Positions 7,129-47,644 of a DNA stretch of 64,000 nucleotides are shown piece by piece (within the stretch, counting starts at the first letter, position 1; every line of letters starts with the position of its first letter). The notes under the pieces are model-generated. The model was not told the origin of the DNA. It worked only from the letters and a program-made list of their open reading frames with translations, and made no database searches. This stretch comes from Escherichia coli (GTDB lineage Bacteria; Pseudomonadota; Gammaproteobacteria; Enterobacterales; Enterobacteriaceae): assembly GCF_041248615.1 (NCBI RefSeq), contig NZ_CP158426.1; one strand, given 5' to 3'. A program made the translations under genes and the position numbers.

Positions 7129-7847
7129 CGCAGATGACGACCGCCATCAAGAGGGAAACTGCGTCCGGTGACAAAGCAGCTGGTAAGTAAGTAATCGACC
7201 AGGTCGATTACTTCTTTCTCGCCAGGCGCGGTTTTCATCAGTGATTTATTCAGCGCCTGTTGTCGATATTCGGCATCATCATGCTCATTAAACAGGATCA
7301 GCGATGGCGCAATAGAATTCACTTTCACTTCCGGTGCCAACTTGCGGGCAAACGAGCGGGTCATATTATCCAGTGCCGCTTTGCTTGCAGCATAGGCAAT
7401 ATGTTTGTCGCTACCGCGCTCCACCACATAATCGGTAAAGTGAATAATATCGCTGGCGGCGTGTCCGTGCCCACGCAGTAATCTTTCCAGGGCATGGTTG
7501 AGTAGATATGGGGTATTAACGTGGATCTGCATCATGCAAGCCAGTACGTCGGTCAGTGGTGTACTTGGTTTTTCTGCCATCCACGCGCTGGCGTTATGCA
7601 AAATAGCACGCAGGCCATGGGTGCTTTTTAGTACTTCATCGGCAAACGCCATCACACCGTCGTTGGTCGAAAAATCAGCCTGAATACACTGCGCACCTGC
7701 GTTAATCAGTCCATCAATGGCTGGATAGTGCGTCCGATAGCTGATAATCACCGGTTGCTTTTGATTAATGAAATGCCATGCGAGGGCGAGGCCGATGCGA
7801 CGACCACCGCCAGTAATTAATATTGGCAAGGGCTGGGCTTTACCCAT
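7125..7847 (-). CDS. folM: Dihydromonapterin reductase (SDR family), 240 aa
   Basis: Track ORF 240 aa with SDR Rossmann motif (ILITGGGRRIG); 4-nt convergent overlap with ydgC. Confidence 0.9.
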   Translation of the reverse strand: MGKAQPLPILITGGGRRIGLALAWHFINQKQPVIISYRTHYPAIDGLINAGAQCIQADFSTNDGVMAFADEVLKSTHGLRAILHNASAWMAEKPSTPLTDVLACMMQIHVNTPYLLNHALERLLRGHGHAASDIIHFTDYVVERGSDKHIAYAASKAALDNMTRSFARKLAPEVKVNSIAPSLILFNEHDDAEYRQQALNKSLMKTAPGEKEVIDLVDYLLTSCFVTGRSFPLDGGRHLR

Positions 7848-40974: not shown

Positions 40975-43020
40975 ATGACAACAATGAATCCTTTCCTTGT
41001 GCAAAGCACACTGCCGTATCTGGCTCCCCATTTTGATCAAATTTCCAATCATCACTATCGCCCGGCATTCGATGAGGGAATGCTGCAAAAGCGGGCAGAA
41101 ATTACTGCCATCGCGCTTAACCCGCAAACGCCTGATTTCAACAATACTATTCTGGCACTGGAACAAAGCGGAGAATTACTTACCCGCGTTACCAGCGTCT
41201 TTTTTGCGATGACTGCGGCGCATACCAATGATGAATTACAGCGTCTTGATGAACAGTTTTCCGCTGAACTGGCGGAACTGGCTAATGATATCTATCTGAA
41301 CGGTGAATTATTCGCGCGGGTAGATGCTGTCTGGCAACGCCGTGAATCCCTGGGGCTTGATAGTGAATCCATCCGCCTGGTGGAGGTGATTCATCAACGT
41401 TTTGTCCTTGCCGGAGCCAAACTTGCGCAAGCTGATAAAGCAAAATTAAAAGTACTGAATACAGAAGCTGCGACCCTGACCAGCCAGTTTAACCAGCGGT
41501 TACTGGCAGCAAATAAATCCGGCGGTCTGGTTGTGAACGATATCGCGCAGCTGGCAGGAATGAGTGAACAAGAGATAGCGCTGGCGGCAGAGGCGGCTCG
41601 CGAGAAAGGTCTGGATAACAAATGGCTGATTCCGCTGCTGAATACCACCCAGCAACCAGCGCTTGCTGAACTGCGCGATCGCGCGACGCGTGAAAAACTG
41701 TTCACTGCGGGCTGGACGCGAGCGGAAAAAAATGATGCCAATGATACCCGCGCTATCATTCAACGTCTGGTGGAGATCCGTGCGCAGCAGGCGAAACTGC
41801 TTGGTTTTCCTCATTATGCCGCATGGAAAATCGCCGATCAGATGGCAAAAACACCTGAAGCAGCACTCAACTTTATGCGGGAAATTGTTCCAGCGGCGCG
41901 TCAACGTGCGAGCGATGAATTAGCCTCCATACAGGCGGTTATCGATAAGCAGCAAGGCGGGTTTAGCGCGCAGCCGTGGGACTGGGCATTTTATGCCGAA
42001 CAGGTACGGCGGGAAAAATTTGATCTTGATGAGGTGCAGCTCAAGCCATATTTTGAATTAAACACGGTGTTGAATGAAGGTGTATTCTGGACCGCGAATC
42101 AGCTCTTCGGTATTAAGTTTGTCGAACGTTTTGATATTCCTGTCTACCATCCTGACGTTCGTGTGTGGGAAATTTTTGATCATAATGGCGTGGGGCTGGC
42201 GTTATTTTACGGTGATTTCTTCGCCCGTGATTCAAAAAGCGGCGGTGCATGGATGGGCAATTTTGTTGAGCAATCAACGCTTAATGAAACGCACCCGGTA
42301 ATTTATAACGTTTGCAATTATCAGAAACCCGCTGCCGGTGAGCCTGCGTTGTTACTCTGGGATGATGTCATAACCTTATTCCATGAATTTGGTCATACGC
42401 TGCACGGCCTCTTTGCCCGCCAGCGTTATGCCACGCTTTCCGGCACCAACACGCCGCGTGATTTTGTCGAATTTCCGTCGCAAATCAACGAACACTGGGC
42501 AACGCATCCGCAGGTATTCGCTCGCTACGCCCGGCATTATCAGAGCGGGGCAGCAATGCCTGACGAACTGCAACAGAAAATGCGTAATGCCAGCCTGTTC
42601 AATAAAGGGTATGAGATGAGCGAACTGCTTAGCGCCGCACTTCTCGATATGCGCTGGCATTGCCTGGAAGAAAACGAAGCAATGCAGGATGTCGATGATT
42701 TCGAATTGCGGGCGCTGGTGGCAGAAAATATGGATCTTCCCGCTATACCGCCACGCTATCGCAGCAGTTATTTCGCCCATATTTTTGGTGGCGGATATGC
42801 CGCAGGTTATTACGCTTATCTGTGGACGCAAATGTTGGCCGATGATGGTTACCAGTGGTTTGTTGAGCAGGGCGGATTAAAGCGTGAAAATGGGCTGCGT
42901 TTTCGCGAGGCGATCCTTTCCAGAGGTAACAGCGAGGATCTGGAACGCCTGTATCGACAATGGCGCGGTAAGGCACCTCAGATTATGCCGATGCTGCAAC
43001 ATCGTGGCTTGAACGTATAA
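40975..43020 (+). CDS. dcp: Dipeptidyl carboxypeptidase II (M3 family), 681 aa
   Basis: Track ORF 703 aa; start placed at MTTMNPFLVQ (ATG 40975) with AGGAGAAG RBS; HEFGH zinc motif present. Confidence 0.93.
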   Translation: MTTMNPFLVQSTLPYLAPHFDQISNHHYRPAFDEGMLQKRAEITAIALNPQTPDFNNTILALEQSGELLTRVTSVFFAMTAAHTNDELQRLDEQFSAELAELANDIYLNGELFARVDAVWQRRESLGLDSESIRLVEVIHQRFVLAGAKLAQADKAKLKVLNTEAATLTSQFNQRLLAANKSGGLVVNDIAQLAGMSEQEIALAAEAAREKGLDNKWLIPLLNTTQQPALAELRDRATREKLFTAGWTRAEKNDANDTRAIIQRLVEIRAQQAKLLGFPHYAAWKIADQMAKTPEAALNFMREIVPAARQRASDELASIQAVIDKQQGGFSAQPWDWAFYAEQVRREKFDLDEVQLKPYFELNTVLNEGVFWTANQLFGIKFVERFDIPVYHPDVRVWEIFDHNGVGLALFYGDFFARDSKSGGAWMGNFVEQSTLNETHPVIYNVCNYQKPAAGEPALLLWDDVITLFHEFGHTLHGLFARQRYATLSGTNTPRDFVEFPSQINEHWATHPQVFARYARHYQSGAAMPDELQQKMRNASLFNKGYEMSELLSAALLDMRWHCLEENEAMQDVDDFELRALVAENMDLPAIPPRYRSSYFAHIFGGGYAAGYYAYLWTQMLADDGYQWFVEQGGLKRENGLRFREAILSRGNSEDLERLYRQWRGKAPQIMPMLQHRGLNV

Positions 43021-43031
43021 ACACCACCAAT

Positions 43032-43061
43032 GGCTGGCCTGGAGAAATCGCCAGGCCAGCC
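43032..43061 (+). terminator. Strong hairpin 12 nt after dcp stop (terminator-like, no U-tract)
   Basis: Perfect 11-bp stem GGCTGGCCTGG/CCAGGCCAGCC with 8-nt loop. Confidence 0.4.
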
Positions 43062-43384
43062 TGGTTAGAGCAGTAATTGCAGCAGCTGGGCGAGGGCAAA
43101 CCTCACCGCTAATGCTAATACCGTTTCGCAGTCGCCAGCAAAATTACTTTTTTTGTATACCCTTCCGTTATAATAATTTTCAAATTTATAAATCTGATTG
43201 TTCTGAAATATGTTTAAGACTCTTTAATCTTCTTCTTACTTTAGTGAGTAAAATTCTCTGAATATTTGACAGCTAGTTGCCTGATTTTAAATGCCTTATA
43301 ACAATTGGCAGTATTCTTATTTGTCAATTATAAAAATAGCAACCAGACTTAATAAGTCAAACCAAACGCAATTAAGGAGTCAGT

Positions 43385-43777
43385 ATGAAATTTCAGGCCA
43401 TTGTATTAGCAAGTTTTCTTGTCATGCCTTATGCGTTGGCAGATGACCAGGGCGGATTAAAACAGGATGCAGCGCCACCGCCGCCTCATGCAATAGAAGA
43501 TGGCTATCGCGGAACCGATGATGCAAAAAAAATGACCGTTGATTTCGCAAAAACCATGCATGATGGCGCTTCGGTTTCACTACGCGGTAATTTGATTTCT
43601 CACAAAGGAGAGGACCGTTACGTTTTTCGCGATAAGAGCGGTGAAATTAATGTTGTTATTCCTGCGGCAGTCTTTGATGGACGAGAAGTTCAGCCGGACC
43701 AGATGATCAACATTAGCGGCAGTCTGGATAAGAAAAGCGCGCCGGCCGTCGTTCGGGTCACTCATTTGCAGAAATAA
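43385..43777 (+). CDS. ydeI: Periplasmic OB-fold stress-resistance protein, 130 aa
   Basis: Track ORF 130 aa with signal peptide [19 protein letters not shown]; AAGGAG RBS. Confidence 0.85.
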
Positions 43778-44031
43778 AAATAAATTAGCCTGATGGCCTG
43801 AACTACTGGGCCATTAGGGTATTGGGTTATGCTATTTGTCATCCTTTTAATTGCGATAATGCAGGCTTAATTTACAGAATTAAACACTTTTTTATCTGCT
43901 GATTTTGTTTCAAATCACAATGTTATCTCAGAGATGACTCATAACTTCGGATTTCTATGAAAATATTGACGTAATTTTGCTTTTCTCCCGTTAGAATAGC
44001 GCGCACAAGGAACTGTGAAAAAGGAGTGGCA

Positions 44032-44943
44032 ATGATCAAGAAGACAACGGAAATTGATGCCATCTTGTTAAATCTCAATAAGGCTATCGATGCCCACTAC
44101 CAGTGGCTGGTAAGTATGTTTCACAGCGTGGTCGCGAGAGATGCCAGTAAGCCAGAAATAACGGATAACCATTCTTATGGACTGTGCCAGTTTGGTCGGT
44201 GGATTGATCATCTGGGGCCACTCGATAACGATGAATTACCTTATGTTCGGCTAATGGATTCTGCCCATCAACATATGCATAACTGTGGTCGGGAATTAAT
44301 GTTGGCTATTGTTGAAAATCACTGGCAGGACGCGCATTTCGACGCCTTTCAGGAAGGGTTGCTTTCTTTTACTGCGGCATTAACCGATTACAAAATTTAT
44401 TTGCTGACGATCCGTAGCAATATGGATGTTTTGACGGGATTGCCGGGTCGTCGGGTTCTTGATGAATCCTTTGATCATCAGTTACGCAACGCTGAGCCTC
44501 TGAATCTTTATTTAATGTTGTTGGATATTGACCGATTTAAATTGGTTAATGATACCTACGGGCATTTAATCGGCGATGTAGTATTACGCACCCTGGCAAC
44601 TTACTTAGCCAGTTGGACGCGCGATTACGAAACGGTTTATCGCTACGGTGGCGAAGAATTTATCATTATTGTCAAAGCGGCTAATGATGAAGAAGCATGT
44701 CGTGCAGGTATCAGAATTTGCCAGTTAGTCGATAACCATGCCATCACACATTCTGAAGGGCATATCAACATTACCGTGACAGCAGGTGTCAGTCGCGCAT
44801 TTCCTGAAGAGCCTCTGGATGTGGTCATTGGAAGAGCAGACCGGGCAATGTATGAGGGTAAGCAAACCGGAAGAAATCGCTGCATGTTTATTGACGAACA
44901 AAATGTGATTAACCGAGTTTCAGCTCCGTTTAACATTCATTGA
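44032..44943 (+). CDS. dgcZ: Zinc-sensing diguanylate cyclase DgcZ (GGDEF), 296 aa
   Basis: Track ORF 305 aa; start placed at MIKKTTEID (ATG 44032) with AAGGAG RBS; RYGGEEF active-site motif. Confidence 0.9.
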   Translation: MIKKTTEIDAILLNLNKAIDAHYQWLVSMFHSVVARDASKPEITDNHSYGLCQFGRWIDHLGPLDNDELPYVRLMDSAHQHMHNCGRELMLAIVENHWQDAHFDAFQEGLLSFTAALTDYKIYLLTIRSNMDVLTGLPGRRVLDESFDHQLRNAEPLNLYLMLLDIDRFKLVNDTYGHLIGDVVLRTLATYLASWTRDYETVYRYGGEEFIIIVKAANDEEACRAGIRICQLVDNHAITHSEGHINITVTAGVSRAFPEEPLDVVIGRADRAMYEGKQTGRNRCMFIDEQNVINRVSAPFNIH

Positions 44944-44967
44944 GAAAACTGATGCTACTGTGTCAAC

Positions 44968-45065
44968 GATCCGTTATCAGTGCAGGAAAATGCCTGTTAG
45001 CGTAAAAGCAAAACACAAATCTATCCATGCAAGCATTCACCGCCGGTTTACTGGCGGTTTTTTTT
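44968..45065 (+). ncRNA. mgrR: Candidate PhoP-dependent small RNA MgrR (~98 nt)
   Basis: Intrinsic terminator (CCGCCGG/CTGGCGG stem + T8) ends at 45065; PhoP-box-like CGTTTA-N5-CATTGA at 44927-44943 and -10-like TACTGT place a TSS near 44968, giving ~98 nt; adjacent to mgtS as I recall for K-12. Confidence 0.55.
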
Positions 45066-45140
45066 CGCCGTCATAAAAATCAGGCCCCTTGTACACAACT
45101 GTAACAAGGGGCCGGTTAGGTGAGGGATTATCTCCGTTCA

Positions 45141-45236
45141 TTAGTCATCCCATTTGTGGCTGAAATACGCGGCCAGAAAACCAGAAAATAAAATTATTCC
45201 CAGTACGGCCATAAAAACATTCATATTACCCAGCAT
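45141..45236 (-). CDS. mgtS: Small membrane protein MgtS (YneM), 31 aa
   Basis: Manual translation MLGNMNVFMAVLGIILFSGFLAAYFSHKWDD with GGAGGG RBS upstream; matches recalled MgtS sequence. Confidence 0.7.
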   Translation of the reverse strand: MLGNMNVFMAVLGIILFSGFLAAYFSHKWDD

Positions 45237-45362
45237 TATTTCCCTCCGTTTATGGTGTGGTGTGTTTCCTCGCTTACCTTAATTTTCATCTCAATGAGAA
45301 AGATATTAGCAGAGGTAACCTAAACGAAGGATGAATTAAATCTTTATTGTGTTCGACTTAAA

Positions 45363-46550
45363 TCAACAAAGCGCGGGCTGCCCCCACGGTCTTGCACGAA
45401 TTCCTTTTAACATCAGCACCCACGCAGCAATGATCACCAACGCTAAGATGATAAACAGCGAGAAAGGCGGCAGACTGGTAAGCACTATGCCACTCACTAA
45501 TGGGTTAATCGCCGCACCAAGCCAGCCTAAAGACTGAGCGGAAAAATAGCTGGCTTTCATTCCTGGCGGCGCAATATGGTCAATCAACATATACTCGCCC
45601 GGCGCATAAATGATTTCACCGACAGTAAATACCGCAGCTGACATACCCCACAATAGCAGGCTGTTGCCGGAAAAAATAAAACCAACCAGACCGATGACGA
45701 AACAGAGGGTGCCTGCTGTCATCAGCGCGCGGATGTTAGCCGGGTTAAGTCGGCGTCCCACGGAATATTGCAACGTAACTACCATGGCAGCATTAACCGG
45801 AAGAACAACCGCAACCACCTTTTCGGCAAAATCACCATCAGCAATCACCATCACATATTGTGAAATGCATGAAGCAAATGCGCCGCTAACAAAGGAAGCC
45901 AGAAAACCAGAGCAGGTAAACCACAACAGTGCTTTATCTTGTAATAAAACTTTCGGCGACCAGACACTGCCTGTTTCCGTGGCGATGATTTTCTCGCTGC
46001 GCTTTACCCAAATTTGAATGAAAAGCATGGGAAACGCGGAACAGATAGCTGCCAGCCAGAAGGGCAGATTGATGCTCTGCATCACCAACAGCGTGCCGAG
46101 CGGCGGACCGATGGTCCAGCCAATGTTTAGCATGGTGTAGTTGATTGAGAAGATTTTCGTTTTGCTGGTGGACGAAAGATTGTCGGCAAACCAGGCTTTC
46201 AACACGGTAGCAAAAACGGAATAGGCGCAGTTAATAAGGGCAAAAAAGAGCACCACCAGCGTCACGTTATTCACTAAAGGAATGGCAATAAAACCACTGG
46301 CGAAGGCGGTAATTGCCAGTAACATATAGCGTTTCTTGTCGAACTTATCCGCCAGGATACCAAAACCGAGGCTAAAAACGACGCCAATAGTGAGCGCAAT
46401 TGTCATCGCATAACCGATTAGATTGACACTCAGGTTGTACTGGCGACTCAAGTAAATGGTCATAAACGGCAGCGTAGCGCCGCGTCCGATGGTTAATAAC
46501 AACGACGAGGTAAGAAGGGCGCTGGTAGAGCGTCGTAGGGATAAGTTCAT
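45363..46550 (-). CDS. ydeE: MFS transporter, 395 aa
   Basis: Track ORF 395 aa, 12-TM MFS. Confidence 0.88.
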   Translation of the reverse strand: MNLSLRRSTSALLTSSLLLTIGRGATLPFMTIYLSRQYNLSVNLIGYAMTIALTIGVVFSLGFGILADKFDKKRYMLLAITAFASGFIAIPLVNNVTLVVLFFALINCAYSVFATVLKAWFADNLSSTSKTKIFSINYTMLNIGWTIGPPLGTLLVMQSINLPFWLAAICSAFPMLFIQIWVKRSEKIIATETGSVWSPKVLLQDKALLWFTCSGFLASFVSGAFASCISQYVMVIADGDFAEKVVAVVLPVNAAMVVTLQYSVGRRLNPANIRALMTAGTLCFVIGLVGFIFSGNSLLLWGMSAAVFTVGEIIYAPGEYMLIDHIAPPGMKASYFSAQSLGWLGAAINPLVSGIVLTSLPPFSLFIILALVIIAAWVLMLKGIRARPWGQPALC

Positions 46551-46744
46551 TTGTCTGTCCGGCAGTGCGTTTCGTTATGTTTTGTTTTAGAGATGTAAAG
46601 AAATAGCATGGCAAAAATCCGAAGTATAGCGACTTATTTGCGCATTAATGCCGTCGTAATCGGCGACTAACGAATCAACTGTTAAAGAAAAGTAAATTCA
46701 GCTAAGTTGATTGCTTACAAAAGATGAAATTCAGAGGCGGTAGA

Positions 46745-47644
46745 ATGTCGCGAAAAGATGGGGTGTTGGCGCTACTGGTAGTGGTCGTATGGGGGCTAAA
46801 TTTTGTGGTCATCAAAGTGGGGCTTCATAACATGCCACCGCTGATGTTGGCCGGTTTGCGCTTTATGCTGGTTGCTTTTCCGGCTATCTTTTTTGTCGCA
46901 CGACCGAAAGTACCACTGAATTTGCTGCTGGGGTATGGATTAACCATCAGTTTTGCGCAGTTTGCTTTTCTTTTTTGTGCCATTAACTTCGGTATGCCTG
47001 CTGGACTGGCTTCGCTGGTGTTACAGGCACAGGCGTTTTTTACTATCGTGCTTGGCGCGTTTACTTTCGGTGAGCGACTGCATGGCAAACAATTGGCGGG
47101 GATCGCCTTAGCGATTTTTGGCGTACTGGTGTTAATCGAAGATAGTCTGAACGGTCAGCATGTGGCGATGCTCGGCTTTATGTTGACCCTGGCGGCAGCA
47201 TTTAGTTGGGCGTGTGGCAACATCTTCAATAAAAAGATCATGTCGCACTCAACGCGTCCGGCGGTGATGTCGCTGGTAATCTGGAGCGCTTTAATCCCAA
47301 TCATTCCCTTCTTTGTTGCCTCGCTGATTCTCGATGGTTCCGCAACCATGATTCACAGTCTGGTTACTATCGATATGACCACCATCTTGTCTCTGATGTA
47401 TCTGGCGTTTGTGGCGACAATTGTTGGTTATGGGATCTGGGGGACGTTACTGGGACGCTATGAAACCTGGCGGGTTGCACCGTTATCGTTACTGGTGCCC
47501 GTAGTAGGACTGGCAAGTGCGGCACTATTGTTGGATGAACGCTTAACGGGTCTACAATTTTTCGGGGCGGTGCTCATTATGACCGGGCTGTATATCAATG
47601 TATTTGGCTTGCGGTGGCGTAAAGCGGTAAAGGTTAGAGGCTAA
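46745..47644 (+). CDS. eamA: Cysteine/O-acetylserine exporter (DMT family), 299 aa
   Basis: Track ORF 306 aa; start placed at MSRKDGVLALLVVVVWG (ATG 46745). Confidence 0.9.
   Translation: MSRKDGVLALLVVVVWGLNFVVIKVGLHNMPPLMLAGLRFMLVAFPAIFFVARPKVPLNLLLGYGLTISFAQFAFLFCAINFGMPAGLASLVLQAQAFFTIVLGAFTFGERLHGKQLAGIALAIFGVLVLIEDSLNGQHVAMLGFMLTLAAAFSWACGNIFNKKIMSHSTRPAVMSLVIWSALIPIIPFFVASLILDGSATMIHSLVTIDMTTILSLMYLAFVATIVGYGIWGTLLGRYETWRVAPLSLLVPVVGLASAALLLDERLTGLQFFGAVLIMTGLYINVFGLRWRKAVKVRG

What the first reader, a model, noticed from the sequence alone, without database searches (positions are those of the whole stretch)
44944..45362. Small-gene pair invisible to the ORF track: mgtS (31 aa) and an MgrR-like sRNA between dgcZ and ydeE
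Manual translation of the minus strand gives a 31-aa hydrophobic protein with a strong RBS that matches the recalled MgtS sequence. Convergent to it on the plus strand, a PhoP-box-like direct repeat, a -10-like hexamer and a canonical intrinsic terminator delimit a ~98-nt transcript, consistent with MgrR. The same terminator could instead simply terminate dgcZ.
Basis: partly seen in the sequence, partly recalled or inferred. Interest (0 to 1): 0.4.

Follow-up and report, generated by a model that had tools for sequence, protein, structure and literature searches.

The report
Known E. coli mgrR–mgtS small-gene locus

Summary
The window is E. coli chromosome (100% identity to several strains).

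- **mgrR:** Window 44968-45065 (+) is the 98-nt sRNA MgrR. It aligns end-to-end with K-12 gene b4698, 97 of 98 bases. It lies inside a Rfam RF01407 (STnc560) match of 281.9 bits, E 1.8e-64.
- **mgtS:** Window 45141-45236 (-) is mgtS, base-for-base identical to K-12 b4599. It matches the NCBIfam equivalog NF033842 at E 5.8e-23.
Two more published small ORFs are chained to mgtS through overlapping TAATG junctions. They are mgtT (45037-45141, 34 aa, b4775) and the 17-aa leader ORF "CDS58" (45236-45289).
- **PhoP box:** The conserved mgrR PhoP box (44927-44943) lies upstream of the finding's start coordinate, inside the 3' end of dgcZ.
- **Own promoter:** Across 94 enterobacterial mgrR loci the promoter is conserved, although a dgcZ homolog lies upstream in only 15 of 77. 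So mgrR has its own promoter and is not just the tail of dgcZ.

Interest is low.

The parts
44032..44943 (+). dgcZ (diguanylate cyclase), the upstream neighbour. In this strain it is 7 codons longer than in K-12, because K-12's TAA stop is TCA here (SNP at 44921).
   Evidence: RefSeq annotation of a 100%-identical strain; alignment to K-12; ORF list.
44927..44943 (+). mgrR PhoP box, CGTTTA-acatt-CATTGA: two half-sites 11 bp apart, ending 12 nt before the -10. It overlaps the last codons and the TGA stop of this strain's dgcZ.
   Evidence: This block is conserved across genera whatever the upstream gene. That PhoP binds it is inferred from the motif and from published PhoQ/PhoP dependence of mgrR (PMC6239178; 10.1101/2021.06.30.450655).
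44953..44961 (+). mgrR extended -10, TGcTACTGT. The hexamer TACTGT is 44956-44961, 6 nt before +1.
   Evidence: Read from the sequence. TGnTA is conserved at fixed spacing in 76 of 94 loci (strict) and 94 of 94 (relaxed).
44968..45065 (+). mgrR, a 98-nt Hfq-dependent sRNA. It has a 5' hairpin (44972-45002), an A-rich single-stranded stretch (about 45003-45019), the seed U55-A68 (45022-45035, TATCCATGCAAGCA) and a terminator stem-loop (45039-45058) with a U8 tail (45058-45065).
   Evidence: K-12 ncRNA b4698 is co-linear with it, 97 of 98 bases. Rfam RF01407 scores 281.9 bits. The MFE is -25.9 kcal/mol, z -2.9. Terminator scan. Seed and ARN positions come from PMC6239178.
45037..45141 (-). mgtT, a 34-aa ORF (MNGDNPSPNRPLVTVVYKGPDFYDGEKKPPVNRR). 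Its ATG overlaps the mgtS stop (TAATG). It runs through the mgtS terminator hairpin and ends in the antisense of the mgrR terminator, overlapping mgrR by 29 nt.
   Evidence: ORF list. Annotated as mgtT in RefSeq and as K-12 b4775. DNA identical to K-12. Literature: Weaver et al. 10.1101/511675; PMC11429745.
45075..45113 (-). mgtS intrinsic terminator: hairpin 45113-45083 (GGCCCCTTGT...ACAAGGGGCC) followed by a T run at 45079-45075. It lies inside the mgtT ORF.
   Evidence: Fold of the minus strand. In the 34-sequence alignment, 8 of 10 stem pairs show compensatory changes and a T run follows in each.
45141..45236 (-). mgtS (formerly yneM), a 31-aa single-helix membrane protein. Its Shine-Dalgarno GGAGGG is at 45247-45242.
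   Evidence: NCBIfam NF033842 at E 5.8e-23. DNA identical to K-12 b4599.
45236..45289 (-). Leader ORF 'CDS58', 17 aa (MKIKVSEETHHTINGGK). Its TAA stop overlaps the mgtS ATG (TAATG). It is present only in E. coli proper.
   Evidence: Translation. Same peptide listed as CDS58 in PIRT-seq supplementary file 5, where the SPA-tag signal was weak. Absent in all other genera and in E. albertii.
45303..45337 (-). mgtS promoter: PhoP box AATTCA (45337-45332)-N5-CGTTTA (45326-45321), then 12 nt, then the -10 TAATAT (45308-45303). This is the same 12-nt box-to--10 spacing as at mgrR.
   Evidence: Sequence. Conservation in 47 distinct mgtS upstream regions. PhoQP-dependent reporter activity is published (PMC11429745).
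45363..46550 (-). ydeE (MFS dipeptide exporter), the co-directional upstream neighbour of mgtS. A terminator-like hairpin at 45388-45372 overlaps its last codons.

Best explanation
This is the E. coli mgrR / mgtS low-magnesium locus, a compact pair of convergent PhoP-activated transcription units.

**Plus strand.** A PhoP box (44927-44943) and an extended -10 (44953-44961) drive a 98-nt transcript (44968-45065) that ends at its own intrinsic terminator. This is MgrR. According to the literature it binds Hfq and uses its single-stranded seed (45022-45035) to repress eptB, ygdQ and pitA mRNAs.

**Minus strand.** A second PhoP box and -10 (45337-45303) drive an mRNA with three ORFs chained by TAATG overlaps:
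- the E. coli-only 17-aa CDS58;
- the conserved 31-aa membrane protein MgtS, which according to the literature stabilises the Mg2+ importer MgtA and acts on PitA;
- the 34-aa MgtT.

The mgtS mRNA has its own conserved terminator (45113-45075).

**What is shown here:** sequence identity to the K-12 genes, family membership, promoter and terminator conservation, and terminator covariation.

**What is taken from the literature or inferred:** PhoP binding, Hfq dependence, the targets, and the MgtA/PitA effects.
For: - Rfam RF01407 (STnc560) scores 281.9 bits, E 1.8e-64, over the full model.
- K-12 annotates mgtS b4599, mgtT b4775 and mgrR b4698 in the same order and orientation between ydeE and dgcZ.
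- A 501-nt alignment to K-12 shows only 4 substitutions, none in mgtS or mgtT and one at MgrR +4.
- The MgtS peptide hits NF033842 at 80.6 bits against a cut-off of 35.
- The locus is present in 5416 of 5426 complete E. coli genomes.
- The strict mgrR promoter motif is found in 76 of 94 loci. It occurs only 80 times in all 1.64 Mb of loci, on both strands. The relaxed form is in 94 of 94.
- The mgtS terminator covaries at 8 of 10 pairs.
- Papers report PhoQ/PhoP-dependent, convergent transcription of mgrR and mgtS (10.1101/2021.06.30.450655), the 98-nt MgrR with seed U55-A68 (PMC6239178), and the PhoQP-dependent mgtS-mgtT operon (PMC11429745).
Against: - No expression data exist for this strain.
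- The PhoP consensus match is not significant on its own. Here the mgrR box has 5 mismatches to KGTTTA-N5-KGTTTA.
- The primary papers that mapped the mgrR +1 and PhoP box (Moon & Gottesman 2009), and Wang 2017 and Yin 2019 on MgtS, were not held in the library. The box assignment therefore rests on my conservation analysis.
- The genome scan used the MgrR seed as an exact pattern, so invariance of the seed among the loci follows from how they were found.
Confidence: 0.97

Rival explanations
1. The plus-strand terminator at 45039-45065 merely ends dgcZ mRNA. The 98-nt stretch would then be the dgcZ 3' UTR, with no promoter of its own.
For: No other terminator-like site lies between the dgcZ stop (44943) and 45039. 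dgcZ read-through very probably does end here as well, and the two roles are compatible. The promoter lies partly inside dgcZ.
Against: The promoter block and the sRNA are conserved in genera where no dgcZ homolog lies upstream: only 15 of 77 loci with at least 1.1 kb of upstream flank have one, and in Salmonella ydeI is upstream instead. K-12 annotates an independent ncRNA. Published work shows PhoQ/PhoP-dependent induction of MgrR.
Confidence: 0.02
2. MgtT, and likewise CDS58, is not a protein under selection for its own sequence. It would be a translated by-product of ORFs that happen to be open across RNA elements.
For: - MgtT codons about 10-20 are the mgtS terminator hairpin, which covaries as RNA.
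- Its C-terminus, EKKPPVNRR*, is the antisense of the mgrR terminator.
- In 48 distinct mgtS loci the overlapping ORF is 0-53 aa long with unrelated C-termini, and it often stops before or inside the hairpin.
- One E. coli-clade genome has MgtS 100% identical but MgtT only 82% identical.
- CDS58 exists only in E. coli proper.
- Deletion or overexpression of mgtT gave no phenotype (PMC11429745).
Against: The overlapping start T(A/G)ATG and the N-terminus M-N-x-D-N/S-P-x-P are kept in about 40 loci, with some synonymous third-position changes. MgtT and CDS58 were detected with SPA tags.
Confidence: 0.55
3. The 31-aa ORF is a chance open frame and is not expressed.
For: Seventy-three ORFs of at least 20 aa overlap 43000-47500, so a short ORF alone means little.
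Against: It gives an equivalog-level HMM hit. It is conserved next to mgrR in 45 of 94 loci across at least seven genera, with nearly invariant GFLAAYFSHKWDD. It has a strong SD. It is annotated in 5400+ genomes.
Confidence: 0.005

Closest known systems
MgrR sRNA of E. coli K-12 (b4698); Rfam RF01407 STnc560 (Salmonella name)
   Same: Same length (98 nt), same ends, same seed, same terminator, same position between dgcZ and mgtT/mgtS. 97 of 98 bases are identical.
   Different: One substitution at +4 (C here, T in K-12), outside the predicted 5' hairpin. Upstream, K-12's dgcZ stop TAA is TCA here, so dgcZ translation runs into the PhoP box.
MgtS (YneM), 31-aa regulator of MgtA and PitA (K-12 b4599; NCBIfam NF033842)
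   Same: Identical coding DNA. Same PhoP-type promoter, SD and terminator.
   Different: Two flanking substitutions only: GGAGGG here against GGAGGC in the SD region (45242), and T against G (minus strand) in the spacer of the PhoP box (45331).
MgtT (K-12 b4775; Weaver et al. 2019) and CDS58 (PIRT-seq, NAR 2025)
   Same: Identical peptides, and the same TAATG overlaps with mgtS.
   Different: One synonymous change in CDS58 (GGG against GGC, Gly16).
Canonical PhoP-activated promoters (mgtA, phoP, mgrB type: direct repeat (T/G)GTTTA-N5-(T/G)GTTTA in place of a -35). The reference architecture is recalled from memory, not checked here.
   Same: Both promoters here have two half-sites 11 bp apart that end 12 nt before the -10, with no good -35.
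   Different: The half-sites are degenerate (CGTTTA/CATTGA and AATTCA/CGTTTA). Binding was not tested.

Membership tests
MgrR / Rfam RF01407 (STnc560) | Covariance-model score above the curated gathering threshold | tested here: met
   281.9 bits against 55, E 1.8e-64, model positions 1-214 of 214.
MgrR / Rfam RF01407 (STnc560) | Orthology with the experimentally defined K-12 mgrR (same ends, same neighbours) | tested here: met
   b4698 aligns to 44968-45065 with 97 of 98 bases identical; the order ydeE-mgtS-mgtT-mgrR-dgcZ is the same.
MgrR / Rfam RF01407 (STnc560) | Single-stranded seed U55-A68 that pairs with eptB and ygdQ | tested here: met
   TATCCATGCAAGCA at 45022-45035 is identical to K-12. 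In the MFE only A60-G62 of the seed are paired, in one weak 3-bp helix that the centroid structure reduces to 2 bp. Positions come from PMC6239178. Pairing to targets was not tested.
MgrR / Rfam RF01407 (STnc560) | Rho-independent terminator with a poly-U tail; A-rich (ARN)n stretch for Hfq (Class II sRNA) | tested here: met
   8-bp stem plus U8. The terminator stem is conserved in 75 sequences. The A-rich stretch is present in the sequence. Hfq binding itself cannot be tested with these tools.
MgrR / Rfam RF01407 (STnc560) | PhoQ/PhoP-dependent transcription from its own promoter | tested here: inconclusive
   A conserved PhoP-box-like repeat and extended -10 are present in 94 of 94 loci (relaxed) and 76 of 94 (strict). 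The consensus match is not significant alone. Expression was not measured.
MgtS (NCBIfam NF033842, equivalog) | HMM score above the curated cut-off over the full length | tested here: met
   80.6 bits against 35, residues 1-31 of 31, E 5.8e-23.
MgtS (NCBIfam NF033842, equivalog) | 31-aa single hydrophobic helix, strong SD, PhoP-type promoter, own terminator | tested here: met
MgtS (NCBIfam NF033842, equivalog) | Binds and stabilises MgtA and modulates PitA | not testable with these tools
   Literature only (10.1101/2021.06.30.450655; references listed).
MgtT (K-12 b4775) | 34-aa ORF whose ATG overlaps the mgtS stop, identical to the K-12 product | tested here: met
   There is no NCBIfam model for it.
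MgtT (K-12 b4775) | Conserved as a protein beyond Escherichia | tested here: not met
   An ORF with this end (…KKPPVN[RW]R*) is found only in E. coli and E. albertii. A third Escherichia-like locus (L101) has a 30-aa form with a different C-terminus. Elsewhere the ORF is 0-53 aa with different ends. This does not affect membership of the window's copy; it bears only on whether the protein has a function.

The most novel reading that the evidence does not exclude
The conserved feature downstream of mgtS may not be the MgtT protein. It may instead be a translationally coupled, proline-rich mini-ORF (T(A/G)ATG start, M-N-x-D-N/S-P-x-P) that delivers ribosomes onto, or right up to, the 5' arm of the mgtS terminator.

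Ribosome occupancy there could be sensitive to Mg2+ or proline, as in the mgtL and mgtP leaders. It could then tune termination against read-through. In E. coli, read-through means antisense transcription across the 3' end of mgrR, which would link the outputs of the two convergent PhoP-induced genes.

My evidence neither supports nor excludes this beyond the conservation pattern.
Probability: 0.07. Interest if true: 0.45.

Novelty: already known. Interest (0 to 1): 0.08.

Why it matters
It matters little beyond annotation quality. mgrR, mgtS and mgtT are curated K-12 genes, and CDS58 was published in 2025.

The case does show that a reader working from sequence alone can recover real sub-50-aa genes and sRNAs that standard ORF tracks and PGAP omit; PGAP names mgtS and mgtT but not mgrR.

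The by-products are modestly useful:
- a cross-genus definition of the mgrR and mgtS promoters;
- covariation support for the mgtS terminator;
- evidence that the MgtT and CDS58 sequences are largely dictated by overlapping RNA elements and are restricted to Escherichia.

Tried and rejected
1. **PhoP consensus scan of the window**. It gave 19 hits against 17 expected, and neither real promoter was among them. It is uninformative, so I dropped it as evidence.
2. **The 44921 SNP as damage to the mgrR PhoP box.** I first thought this SNP (K-12 TAA to TCA) hit the box (GTTTAA to GTTTCA). I rejected that: the hexamer is not conserved outside Escherichia, and the conserved box is one helical turn downstream.
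3. **RNAalifold on the MAFFT alignment of 75 MgrR sequences**. It recovered only the terminator. The 5' hairpin is too variable in sequence and length for a sequence-based alignment, so I make no covariation claim for it.
4. **Primary papers.** Moon & Gottesman 2009, Wang 2017, Yin 2019 and Hemm 2010 were not held. The experimentally mapped +1 and PhoP box could not be checked against my assignment.
5. **A regex search for MgtS** missed divergent Kluyvera homologues. I replaced it with tblastn.
6. **Chance hits of the 18-nt seed** in unrelated genomes (L028, L041, L050, L058, L064, L090, probably L033 and L098) were excluded because no terminator T run follows the match.

Full report
**Observation**

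The region 44700-45600 was read on both strands.

The minus strand carries a 31-codon ORF at 45141-45236, MLGNMNVFMAVLGIILFSGFLAAYFSHKWDD. GGAGGG lies 5 nt upstream of its ATG.

The plus strand carries a terminator with an 8-bp stem, 6 G-C pairs, a 4-nt loop and a T run at 45039-45065. The coordinates it proposed for the RNA (44968-45065) turn out to be exact.

**Identity**

A Rfam scan of the whole 64-kb window returns one hit: RF01407 STnc560, the Salmonella name of MgrR. It covers 44934-45147 (+) at 281.9 bits against a gathering score of 55, E 1.8e-64.

The 501 nt around the finding are 100% identical to several E. coli chromosomes. The region is present in 5416 of 5426 complete E. coli genomes.

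RefSeq annotation of an identical strain gives dcp, ydeI, dgcZ, mgtT, mgtS, ydeE and eamA. The curated K-12 record adds ncRNA mgrR, b4698, 98 nt. Aligned to K-12, mgrR maps to 44968-45065 with one substitution at +4. mgtS and mgtT are base-for-base identical. The MgtS peptide matches the NCBIfam equivalog NF033842 at 80.6 bits, cut-off 35.

The annotation shows mgtT at 45037-45141 (-), 34 aa. Its ATG overlaps the mgtS stop (TAATG), and its 3' end overlaps mgrR by 29 nt on the opposite strand. It was discovered by Weaver et al. (10.1101/511675). It has been described as part of a PhoQP-dependent mgtS-mgtT operon with no deletion or overexpression phenotype (PMC11429745).

The mgtS leader holds a further 17-codon ORF at 45289-45236, MKIKVSEETHHTINGGK, whose TAA overlaps the mgtS ATG. 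This is exactly "CDS58" of the PIRT-seq study, which detected it weakly with an SPA tag (PMC12350097).

The locus therefore holds four published small genes in about 330 bp.

**Promoters**

A scan of one genome per species with the MgrR seed region (AATCTATCCATGCAAGCA) returned 106 loci. About 95 of them are true enterobacterial mgrR genes.

Their upstream regions share one block: (C/T)GTTTA-N5-yrTTGA, then about 9-10 nt, then TGnTA. A strict regular expression finds it in 76 of 94 loci. It gives only 80 hits in all 1.64 Mb of loci on both strands. A relaxed form is present in 94 of 94.

In the window this places three elements:
- the PhoP box at 44927-44943 (CGTTTAacattCATTGA);
- the extended -10 at 44953-44961 (TGcTACTGT);
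- +1 at 44968.

The upstream hexamer AGTTTC (44916-44921) forms a neater direct repeat with CGTTTA. It is not conserved outside Escherichia.

The mgtS promoter has the same architecture: AATTCA-N5-CGTTTA (45337-45321), 12 nt, then TAATAT (45308-45303). It is conserved in 47 distinct upstream regions.

The bare PhoP consensus is not enriched in the window, with 19 hits against 17 expected. The case rests on conservation and on published PhoQ/PhoP dependence. PhoP binding itself is inferred.

**The dgcZ rival**

No other terminator lies between the dgcZ stop (44943) and 45039. dgcZ read-through probably ends at the mgrR terminator too.

mgrR nonetheless has its own promoter. A DgcZ homolog lies upstream in only 15 of 77 loci with enough flank. 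In Salmonella ydeI is upstream, and in Enterobacter, Klebsiella and others neither gene is. The promoter block is kept throughout.

**Terminators and the nature of mgtT**

The mgtS terminator is the hairpin 45113-45083 plus a T run at 45079-45075. It is conserved, with compensatory changes at 8 of 10 pairs in 34 sequences.

It lies inside the mgtT ORF. MgtT's last nine residues (EKKPPVNRR) are the antisense of the mgrR terminator.

Across 48 mgtS loci the overlapping ORF is 0-53 aa long. An ORF with the E. coli C-terminus is found only in E. coli and E. albertii; elsewhere the ORF often stops just before the hairpin or inside its loop. The coupled start and an N-terminal M-N-x-D-N/S-P-x-P are nevertheless conserved. 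CDS58 exists only in E. coli proper.

I read this as RNA-level constraints dictating most of both peptide sequences. Whether the conserved coupled, proline-rich start has a regulatory role at the terminator remains open, and I think it unlikely (see the novel case).

**MgrR structure**

The 98-nt RNA folds into a 5' hairpin, a largely unpaired A-rich and seed region, and the terminator (-25.9 kcal/mol, z -2.9). This agrees with published probing (PMC6239178).

RNAalifold on a MAFFT alignment recovered only the terminator. I make no covariation claim for the 5' hairpin. Seed invariance among the loci follows from how the scan was done.

**Distribution**

mgtS lies convergent to mgrR in 45 of 94 loci. 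These include Escherichia, Citrobacter, Salmonella, Kosakonia, Phytobacter and Pluralibacter, plus a divergent form in Kluyvera. It was not found next to mgrR in the Klebsiella, Raoultella, Lelliottia and Leclercia loci, nor in those of named Enterobacter species.

**Verdict**

The locus is already known and is annotated in K-12. Interest is low. The added value is the fuller parts list, corrected promoter coordinates, and the evidence on mgtT and CDS58.

Noticed in passing
window 44920-44943: K-12's dgcZ stop codon TAA is TCA here (SNP at 44921). DgcZ therefore gains 7 residues (SAPFNIH), and its new TGA stop sits inside the second half-site of the mgrR PhoP box. The exact 57-mer with this allele occurs in 149 of 5389 E. 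coli records, against 4382 of 5416 for the K-12 version. Another E. coli-clade genome (L016) has TTA at the same codon.
   Followed up: partly
window 43144 (between dcp and ydeI): About 475 bp present in K-12 (L002 4238-4713, most of ydeJ) are missing here. RefSeq annotates a small pseudogene remnant in the gap.
   Followed up: partly
window 45283-45264 (-), mgtS 5' UTR: The block TTAAGGTAAG(A/C)GAGGAAAC is strongly conserved across genera in the mgtS leader. The CDS58 reading frame over it is not conserved, so it is probably an RNA-level element of unknown function.
   Followed up: no
window 45139-45116 (-) and homologous loci: Downstream of mgtS, the overlapping start T(A/G)ATG and the codons M-N-x-D-N/S-P-x-P are conserved in about 40 loci, right up to the terminator hairpin. 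The rest of the ORF is not conserved. The arrangement resembles proline-rich attenuator leaders but sits at a 3' end.
   Followed up: partly
Kluyvera loci L020, L044, L048, L049, L060, L106, L107: A divergent MgtS (about 60% identity...SGKWND) ends only 4-7 nt (24 nt in L029) from the antisense A run of the mgrR terminator, with no separate mgtS hairpin. The mgrR terminator appears to serve both convergent genes.
   Followed up: no
L015 (Enterobacteriaceae bacterium RIT691), oriented positions 7642 and 9236: There are two copies of the 3' two-thirds of mgrR 1.6 kb apart. Only the first has the PhoP-type promoter, and the second is the one next to mgtS.
   Followed up: no
L007 (MAG labelled Caldithrix), L013 (Proteobacteria MAG): L007 carries E. 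coli-identical mgtS, mgtT and ydeE, and L013 carries an Enterobacter-like mgrR. This is probably enterobacterial contamination or mis-binning of these MAGs.
   Followed up: no
E. coli genomes H51, H53, H54: Strain EC8 has an IS200C insertion within the locus. In the two O157:H7 genomes listed, the match covers only query positions 1-437 (window 44900-45336), ending in the mgtS promoter, so the ydeE side is different there. PIRT-seq also reports the operon elsewhere in 11.7% of isolates.
   Followed up: no
window 45045-45061 (+): The best PhoP-consensus match in the whole window (1 mismatch, GGTTTACTGGCGGTTTT) is the mgrR terminator itself. This shows how little the bare consensus means.
   Followed up: yes
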